DNA from: Eledone cirrhosa
Taxonomy: Eukaryota
Reading direction: 5' to 3'
NCBI GenBank assembly: GCA_964016885.1
Contig: OZ024749.1
Coordinates: 54,932,001 to 54,996,000 of the forward strand
Length of the DNA: 64,000 bases
The notes under the pieces are model-generated. The model was not told the origin of the DNA. It did not search any database and worked only from the letters and a program-made list of their open reading frames with translations. The position numbers and the translations under genes are program-made. Shown piece after piece: positions 9,721-9,780 of this stretch; within the stretch, counting starts at the first letter, position 1; each line of letters starts with the position of its first letter.

Positions 9721-9780
9721 GGGAGTACGTGGCTCTGATGAACGCCAACCAGCGTGAAACAGGCTGTCAGCTTCTCTCCC
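9721..9780 (+). ncRNA. Type I hammerhead ribozyme, intact core
   Basis: GGCT-CTGATGA(9735-41)-ACGC caacca GCGT-GAAA(9756-59)-CAG g CTG-TC^-AGCT; stem I extended by GGGAG/CTCCC. Confidence 0.85.

What the first reader, a model, noticed from the sequence alone, without database searches (positions are those of the whole stretch)
9721..9780. Intact hammerhead ribozyme of a second family
Seen: full core, 4-bp stem II, minimal near-palindromic stem III (CAGGCTG), GUC cleavage triplet, and stem I with an internal loop (GGGAG-tacgt-GGCT / AGCT-tct-CTCCC) placed to contact loop II. The stems share no sequence with the other hammerheads here. The unique DNA upstream (~9200-9720) could be a decayed Penelope-like body (inference; no ORF recognised).
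Basis: partly seen in the sequence, partly recalled or inferred. Interest (0 to 1): 0.7.

Follow-up and report, generated by a model that had tools for sequence, protein, structure and literature searches.

The report
Hammerhead ribozyme in abundant octopod repeat
A complete self-cutting hammerhead RNA motif is encoded here, but it is one slightly damaged copy of a very abundant short repeat, likely spread by Penelope-type jumping genes, which is a known kind of element and not a new kind of system.

Summary
The motif is real. Positions 9721-9780 (+) carry a complete canonical type I hammerhead: full core, 4-bp helix II, short palindromic helix III, GUC site after 9768, and a bulged helix I. 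None of 1500 shuffled windows gave the full motif. Rfam's best local match is HH9, below the family cut-off. The locus is not unique. Sequencing data laid on it are about 10,000 times deeper over the ribozyme than over the flank, and a second individual confirms this. The family spans about 9620-9830 and ends at a (TA)n tract. This copy has lost the 5' arm of a 13-bp helix I extension and a short 3' hairpin that most relatives carry. The DNA at 9200-9630 is single-copy with no Pfam match, so a decayed Penelope body is unsupported. Best reading: a dispersed monomer of a retrozyme-type or Penelope terminal-repeat family in a probably octopod genome. No tandem arrays were seen. Cleavage and expression are untested, and a competing fold is predicted to be about 7 kcal/mol more stable. 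It is a new member of a known kind.

The parts
9721..9780 (+). Canonical type I hammerhead ribozyme motif
   Evidence: Sequence, descriptor scan, 0 of 1500 shuffles, Rfam HH9 26.9 bits, E 0.00028 in a 1-kb search, gathering score 52
9719..9734 (+). 5' strand of helix I: outer helix 9719-9725, UAC bulge 9726-9728, proximal helix 9729-9734 (U9730 faces U9773)
9735..9741 (+). Catalytic core C3-A9 (CTGATGA)
   Evidence: Sequence
9742..9755 (+). Helix II, 4 bp with A-U at its base, and 6-nt loop II
   Evidence: Pair probabilities 0.96-0.97; loop matches 5 of 6 HH9 consensus loop positions as aligned
9756..9768 (+). GAAA, palindromic helix III (9759-9767) and GUC triplet; cleavage predicted between 9768 and 9769
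   Evidence: Hairpin +2.1 kcal/mol alone, self-duplex -10.0 kcal/mol. Family reads A at 9763 in over 90% and T at 9768 in about one third
9769..9782 (+). 3' strand of helix I
9718..9719 (+). Junction where this copy lacks at least 11 nt found in relatives (the 5' arm of an extra 13-bp helix)
   Evidence: Family alignments start at 9719; the loose ends before 9719 end in the reverse complement of 9783-9795
9783..9795 (+). Orphaned 3' arm of the family's 13-bp helix I extension
   Evidence: Exact reverse complement of the family's loose end
9792..9796 (+). Site where most relatives carry a further 24-30 nt hairpin-forming segment, absent here
   Evidence: Joints 'goes back 3/4' with letters between; X1 depth across 9794 is 51 versus 24,862 at 9790
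9796..9829 (+). 3' tail of the repeat, the deepest part of the family
   Evidence: Depth about 54,000-71,000 in X1 at 9804-9815
9830..9870 (.). Short spacer and (TA)n tract; family homology ends in this interval
   Evidence: Depth falls to 15-85 in contigs and 0 in X4 beyond it; the tool masked 9832-9870, so the exact end is not resolved
9622..9707 (+). 5' part of the repeat (pyrimidine-rich); 5' boundary approximate
   Evidence: Depth 1,100-9,900 over 9636-9707; loose ends before 9649, 9658 and 9672 resemble window 9622-9671 by eye
9200..9620 (.). Single-copy flank; not part of the family and no protein remnant found
   Evidence: Depth 0-9 in contigs, 0-1 in X4; no Pfam match

Best explanation
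This is a canonical type I hammerhead motif inside one dispersed, internally deleted copy of a non-coding repeat family that is about 10,000 times deeper than single-copy DNA, likely spread by Penelope-like element (PLE) enzymes as a retrozyme-type monomer or a solo PLE terminal repeat. Shown: the motif, its multi-copy nature, the family limits (about 9620-9830), the two segments missing from this copy, and the single-copy flank. Inferred: in source copies, read-through transcripts would self-cleave after C17 (9768), leaving 2',3'-cyclic phosphate and 5'-OH ends. They would do so either as monomers helped by the loop I-loop II contact and the long helix I clamp, or as dimers through the palindromic helix III. 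A PLE reverse transcriptase would then copy the RNA from its 3' tail into AT-rich targets, leaving mostly 5'-truncated single copies. This copy is likely a dead-end insertion with no host function. It may cleave in vitro (about even odds), probably weakly.
For:: summed contig depth 52,700-64,600 over 9744-9779 against 2.8-5 on the flank, a ratio of about 13,000-19,000 (a rough figure, the tool says it is no copy number). In RAD run X4, from another sample and study, 970 reads were laid, with depth above 1 only over 9636-9851. Depth falls from 3' to 5' (X4: 485 at 9815, 351 at 9768, 216 at 9727, 132 at 9696, 45 at 9657), as expected for 5' truncation. Three opposite-strand joints were seen, and inverted copies are a PLE hallmark (PMC8557442, passages). 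Family variation respects the fold in places: G9731>A turns G.U into A-U, C9733>T keeps a wobble, and a 63-read subfamily changes the free core position 7 and swaps a helix II G-C for A-U. The architecture matches the canonical metazoan type I description (PMC4209133, parts 1-2 of 4). Retrozyme monomers occur dispersed and derive from PLE terminal repeats (10.64898/2026.07.22.740005, parts 1-3 of 5). The modelled active dimer (-42.6 kcal/mol) equals two misfolded monomers (-42.4).
Against: No PLE reading frame was linked to the family, no target-site duplication was found, and no tandem unit was seen (no back-joint longer than 4 nt among 8 joints). The 3'-to-5' depth gradient could also reflect subfamily divergence or alignment breaks at this copy's deletions. 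The three inverted joints rest on two single contigs and 3 reads. The active monomer fold lies 6.5-7 kcal/mol above a fold that sequesters C3-U4-G5, and the fold z-score is not significant (-0.73; -1.31). Helix II closes with A-U, not the usual G-C; 12% (X1) to 38% (X4) of the family has T at 9742, which gives U.U unless 9755 also changes. About a third has the slower GUU site (PMC3138052, passages, ranks GUC and GUA fastest).
Confidence: 0.8

Rival explanations
1. The family is strictly the 3' pseudo-LTR of an autonomous PLE that carries a canonical rather than minimal hammerhead, and the copies are its truncated tail ends. This is the more specific PLE form of the best explanation.
For: 3'-anchored depth gradient, end beside (TA)n, inverted joints and no tandem joint. 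The window holds several palindromic insertions of PLE style. Two 1.87-kb contigs carry the ribozyme near one end (X2 record 16, X3 record 20), though their other sequence was not visible.
Against: Metazoan PLE hammerheads are usually minimal, with a long helix II, an extra base after A9 and no loop-loop contact (PMC4209133); this one is canonical. No coding sequence was linked to it.
Confidence: 0.4
2. The family is a classical non-LTR retrozyme with tandem source arrays elsewhere in the genome that yield circular RNAs; this locus is a stray monomer.
For: Canonical type I fold with HH9-like loops. Family length is at least about 250-280 nt, within the 150-450 bp range, and 5,000 to over 100,000 motifs per genome are reported for mussel and axolotl (PMC7229834, parts 2-4 of 6). 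The family carries extra self-pairing helices.
Against: No head-to-tail joint among 970 reads and 3,420 laid contigs. The test is blind if the unit holds much sequence missing from this copy. No second copy lies in 64 kb.
Confidence: 0.4
3. This copy has been domesticated as a regulatory ribozyme of a host transcript, like the intronic HH9 of amniotes.
For: The best Rfam match is HH9. The 60-nt motif differs from the family majority at 1 position, against about 6 in the roughly 110 aligned flanking positions; the difference is too small to be significant.
Against: It is one of very many similar copies, and it has two deletions relative to the family. No host gene was identified around it.
Confidence: 0.05
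4. The motif is a chance arrangement of bases.
For: The predicted minimum-energy fold is not the hammerhead, and Rfam's gathering score is not reached.
Against: 0 of 1500 shuffles met the full descriptor. The motif is shared by a large family with fold-respecting variants.
Confidence: 0.01

Closest known systems
Metazoan non-LTR retrozymes with canonical type I hammerheads (coral, mussel, axolotl, Xenopus; PMC7229834; 10.64898/2026.07.22.740005)
   Same: Canonical type I motif with 6-position helix I, 4-bp helix II and short palindromic helix III; non-coding; a few hundred bases; thousands of copies; extra self-pairing; dispersed monomers are described.
   Different: No tandem array was seen; circular RNA was not testable; the family appears anchored at its 3' end beside (TA)n. 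Cephalopods are not mentioned in PMC7229834 (0 occurrences).
Hammerheads in pseudo-LTRs of EN+ Penelope-like elements (Penelope/Poseidon, Neptune; PMC4209133, PMC8557442, PMC11167929)
   Same: Type I topology, palindromic helix III, mostly single dispersed motifs, apparent 5' truncation, inverted joints, microsatellite neighbourhood.
   Different: This motif is canonical, with no extra base after A9, a 4-bp helix II and a defined loop I. No RT or GIY-YIG frame was linked.
Rfam Hammerhead_HH9 (RF02275) and the Schistosoma Sm-alpha hammerhead
   Same: UAC bulge in helix I and a 6-nt loop II beginning CAA align with the HH9 consensus. The Sm-alpha loop contact is taken from PMC6155905 (passages) and from recall.
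   Different: 26.9 bits against a cut-off of 52; different stem sequences; a high-copy repeat, not a conserved single intronic locus.

Membership tests
Canonical type I hammerhead ribozyme | Core CUGANGA, GAAA and NUH site around three helices, open at helix I | tested here: met
Canonical type I hammerhead ribozyme | Helix I about 6 bp to an internal loop, helix II 4 bp, short palindromic helix III | tested here: met
   5 pairs plus U.U, 4 bp, and 3 bp with a palindrome; definition from PMC4209133
Canonical type I hammerhead ribozyme | G10.1-C11.1 pair at the base of helix II | tested here: not met
   A9742-U9755; usual but not obligatory
Canonical type I hammerhead ribozyme | Loop I-loop II tertiary contact | tested here: inconclusive
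   Loop bases resemble the HH9 consensus; no structure or kinetics available
Canonical type I hammerhead ribozyme | Self-cleavage | not testable with these tools
   A competing fold is 6.5-7 kcal/mol lower in a model that ignores tertiary contacts
Rfam RF02275 HH9 | Gathering score of 52 bits | tested here: not met
   26.9 bits; no gathering-level hit in the window
Non-LTR retrozyme | High-copy non-coding repeat of 150-450 bp with a canonical type I motif | tested here: met
   Depth ratio about 10,000 and length at least about 250-280 nt
Non-LTR retrozyme | Head-to-tail tandem units | tested here: inconclusive
   This locus is a monomer; no unit-length back-joint, which has limited reach
Non-LTR retrozyme | Expression as linear and circular RNA | not testable with these tools
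   No RNA run was available for laying
Penelope-like element terminal repeat | Linked RT and GIY-YIG reading frame | tested here: not met
   At this locus the upstream DNA is single-copy and 0 of 6 frames hit Pfam; other copies were not testable
Penelope-like element terminal repeat | 5' truncation, inverted partial copies, microsatellite targets | tested here: inconclusive
   Depth gradient, 3 opposite-strand joints, end beside (TA)n
Penelope-like element terminal repeat | Minimal hammerhead with long helix II and an extra base after A9 | tested here: not met
   Canonical architecture
tRNA-derived SINE | tRNA-like head | tested here: inconclusive
   ARAGORN found 0 genes in the window; the family's true 5' end was not seen

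The most novel reading that the evidence does not exclude
This family is an undescribed cephalopod retrozyme of some 10,000 copies that spreads as dispersed, SINE-like monomers rather than tandem arrays. Its canonical hammerhead is clamped by a 7+13-bp helix I extension and followed by a small hairpin that could be the Penelope recognition signal, and a GUU-site subfamily has amplified alongside the GUC form. It would be an intermediate between Penelope terminal repeats and tandem retrozymes, and a possible source of abundant circular RNA in octopods.
Probability: 0.3. Interest if true: 0.5.

Novelty: new member of a known kind. Interest (0 to 1): 0.3.

Why it matters
Hammerheads in animal repeats are well known, so one more copy changes little. 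The family has some value: I found no paper describing a retrozyme or canonical hammerhead family in octopods, only a count of 235 Rfam 'hammerhead 1' hits in the giant squid genome (PMC6962438, passage). A recent Octopus vulgaris repeat annotation does not use the word ribozyme (PMC13282606). A dispersed canonical family would bear on the proposal that retrozymes arise from Penelope terminal repeats, which was tested mainly in vertebrates. Its natural GUC/GUU and helix variants would allow a direct test of whether cleavage matters for amplification.

Tried and rejected
No whole genome is held, so no genome-wide BLAST was possible. Rfam at gathering level gave 0 hits; the window-wide E-value search listed only microsatellite-driven small-RNA matches in its top 150 of 804 rows. 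Exact family pattern: 0 matches in metagenome and viral contigs. No Penelope frame was recognised among 24 of those loci inspected by eye, so the comparison with Penelope proteins could not be made. Sequencing-run search: no RNA holder listed; 3 holders, one study, one organism label; this says nothing about expression or conservation. Target-site duplication: nothing longer than a 6-nt AT-rich word. The family's 3' hairpin motif has no match elsewhere in the window. A 29-codon open frame starting inside the core (9738-9827) was dismissed as chance. The bacterial promoter scan was irrelevant and at chance level. Earlier scan notes had nothing on this sequence or genome. PMC10886601 held nothing relevant. 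Rejected: chance motif, decayed Penelope body at 9200-9630, membership of HH9.

Full report
Observation. The window is AT-rich and full of microsatellites. The host is probably an octopod: among the 120 listed relatives of the window's intact LINE reverse transcriptase, the highest identity (62%) is to an Argonauta hians protein, and the window's SINE-like repeats look like octopus SINEs to me (recalled, from no call). This is weak evidence for the broad taxon only. A descriptor scan of both strands finds exactly one complete type I hammerhead in 64 kb, this one. In 1500 block-wise dinucleotide shuffles the full descriptor was met 0 times, the descriptor without the outer helix once, and the loosest one 31 times. 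Rfam gives no hit at gathering level. In a 1-kb search the best match is Hammerhead_HH9, 26.9 bits against a cut-off of 52, E 0.00028, with the UAC bulge and the 6-nt loop II aligned to the HH9 consensus.

Anatomy. Helix I has five pairs and one U.U mismatch next to the core, then the bulge, then seven outer pairs. Helix II has four pairs with A-U at its base. Helix III is three pairs with a 3-nt loop and is a palindrome apart from its central base. This fits the published description of canonical metazoan type I motifs and not the minimal motifs of metazoan Penelope-like elements (PMC4209133, parts 1-2 of 4).

Folding, which cuts both ways. The predicted minimum-energy fold keeps helix II and the outer helix but pairs the core with helix III; the active fold lies 6.5-7 kcal/mol higher. 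Folding stability is not above shuffles (z -0.73; -1.31). The model ignores tertiary contacts. Helix III costs 2.1 kcal/mol as a hairpin but gives -10.0 as a duplex of two copies, and a modelled active dimer (-42.6) equals two misfolded monomers (-42.4), near the cofold minimum (-44.7). Dimer activation is therefore plausible, but no second copy lies in the window. Most invertebrate type I motifs are reported to cleave as monomers (PMC7761336, passages), while 8 of 9 predicted Xenopus dimers did not cleave (10.64898/2026.07.22.740005, part 3). Activity of this copy is open.

Copy number. No genome was held. A run search with 9160-9830 listed 6 runs of one organism label; 3 hold the stretch or part of it, all from one sample, and none is on record as RNA. 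I laid 4 of the 6 on 8880-9955 at 80% likeness. Summed contig depth is 2.8-5 over most of 8990-9630 in X1 and X2 (small rises to 14; mostly 0 in X3), 1,100-9,900 over 9636-9707, 11,000-13,000 over 9708-9743 and 52,700-64,600 over 9744-9779. That is a ratio of about 13,000-19,000 at the peak; the tool warns that this is no copy number, so I take it as an order of magnitude. X1-X3 may be the window's own sample. X4 is a RAD run of another sample and study: 970 reads were laid, with depth above 1 only over 9636-9851. Most relatives are 90-95% like this copy (539 of 970 reads). Depth beyond 9870 is 15-85 in contigs and 0 in X4. The tool masked 9832-9870, so the pile of 246 read ends at 9829 may be an artefact and the exact 3' end is not resolved.

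How this copy differs from its family (40 of 43 variant rows shown). Within 9721-9780 only position 9763, the centre of the palindrome, departs from the majority (A in 99.7% of X1 depth and 274 of 300 X4 reads). Family alignments break at 9719, and the loose ends there finish with the exact reverse complement of 9783-9795. Relatives thus extend helix I by 13 pairs past a one-base bulge, and this copy has lost that arm. Most relatives also carry a 24-30 nt hairpin-forming segment behind 9795 that is missing here and in a small minority of others. With these segments the family is at least about 250-280 nt long. Some variants respect the fold: G9731>A, C9733>T, and a 63-read subfamily with a change at core position 7 and a G-C to A-U swap in helix II, though the latter could be CpG decay. 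Others weaken it: T at 9742 in 12% (X1) to 38% (X4), G8>A in 2-6%, and GUU instead of GUC in about a third (117 of 351 reads). GUU is cleavable, but GUC and GUA are the fastest sites (PMC3138052, passages).

Organisation. Eight joints were listed. None goes back more than 4 nt, so no head-to-tail unit was seen among 970 reads and 3,420 laid contigs; the test is blind if the unit holds much sequence absent here. Three joints change strand, on two single contigs and 3 reads. Depth declines from 3' to 5' in X4 (485, 351, 216, 132, 45), which fits 5' truncation but also subfamily divergence. No target-site duplication was found. Inverted partial copies and a bias for microsatellites are Penelope traits (PMC8557442, passages), and the window holds other palindromic insertions, including the first hammerhead-like family at 59885-60000.

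The upstream DNA. 9200-9630 is single-copy: one X1 contig covers 8880-9478 with no differences. 0 of 6 frames of 8860-9720, read through their stops, match Pfam at E<=1, while the window's LINE frame scored as a positive control. The longest open stretch is 86 codons. A decayed Penelope body is unsupported; a very old one cannot be excluded because no Penelope protein was at hand.

Relatives elsewhere. Exact and loose patterns found no family member in metagenome, viral or prokaryotic collections: 0 matches for the exact pattern and 0 of 251 loci with both helices for the loose one.

Mechanism. The evidence shows a dispersed, damaged copy of an abundant non-coding repeat with a canonical hammerhead. 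By analogy with retrozymes (PMC7229834, parts 2-4 of 6), source copies would self-cleave in read-through transcripts and be reinserted by Penelope enzymes; this step is inferred. A 2026 preprint reports that retrozymes derive from Penelope terminal repeats and that monomers are spread evenly along chromosomes (parts 1-3 of 5), so the two leading readings are close. I cannot separate them, and give each about 0.4. In one Penelope element, cleavage needed the element's protein and was not required for insertion in vitro (PMC11167929, passages), so the ribozyme may not be essential for spread. Domestication, as for amniote intronic hammerheads (PMC6155905, passages), is unlikely for one deleted copy among thousands.

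Novelty. Searches for hammerhead ribozyme with octopus (4 papers listed) or cephalopod (2 listed), and broader ones, found no description of this or a similar octopod family; I saw those results as listings. The giant squid genome paper counts 235 Rfam hammerhead hits (PMC6962438, passage). An Octopus vulgaris repeat annotation lists active Penelope families but does not mention ribozymes (PMC13282606, passages). The library lacks most subscription papers, repeat databases were not searchable, and supplements were not read. Verdict: a real motif, a new member of a known kind, interest 0.3.

Noticed in passing
window 59885-60000, 15330-15430, 7150-7201: A different, degenerate hammerhead-like family. 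At 59885-60000 two copies lie back to back as a palindrome; the minus-strand copy keeps core, GAAA and GUC but lacks the 5' arm of helix I. Penelope-style insertion.
   Followed up: partly
window 16508-16655: About 145-bp inverted repeat with a CTGATGA word in each arm, between (TA)n tracts; possibly another decayed Penelope end.
   Followed up: no
window 23441-23823 and 19697-19774: Long palindromic elements (381 bp at 94.8%, 77 bp at 94.8%) next to (TA)n tracts.
   Followed up: no
window 39525-39575: Hammerhead core with a 4-bp helix II and 6-bp complementary flanks, but no helix III or cleavage triplet; relic or chance.
   Followed up: no
window 16943-16995: CTGAAGA and a distant GAAA followed by a short palindrome-like word; does not pass the descriptor.
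   Followed up: no
window 52635-56821: Intact-looking LINE: 392-aa frame with a weak Myb/SANT-like match and a 1046-aa frame with endonuclease and reverse transcriptase. A 570-bp 3' copy at 26000-26569 is 98.9% identical.
   Followed up: partly
window 28940-29377: Five tandem 88-bp units, 96% alike, with no hammerhead core.
   Followed up: no
window 24754-25134, 26932-27370, 27596-28034: Three copies of a 390-440 bp repeat, 96-98% alike, two direct and one inverted.
   Followed up: no
L002, L004, L016, L065, L073, L074; L021, L023, L039, L052, L064: Two recurring low-GC repeat groups in metagenome contigs have a hammerhead core, a palindromic helix III with GUU and often a 5-6 bp helix I, but a weak helix II. 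They resemble minimal Penelope hammerheads from eukaryotic DNA and are unrelated to this family.
   Followed up: partly
X2 record 16 and X3 record 20: Two 1.87-kb contigs carry a family ribozyme near one end, with about 1.7 kb on what appears to be its 3' side. Their sequence was not shown; it could be a flank or a longer parent element.
   Followed up: no
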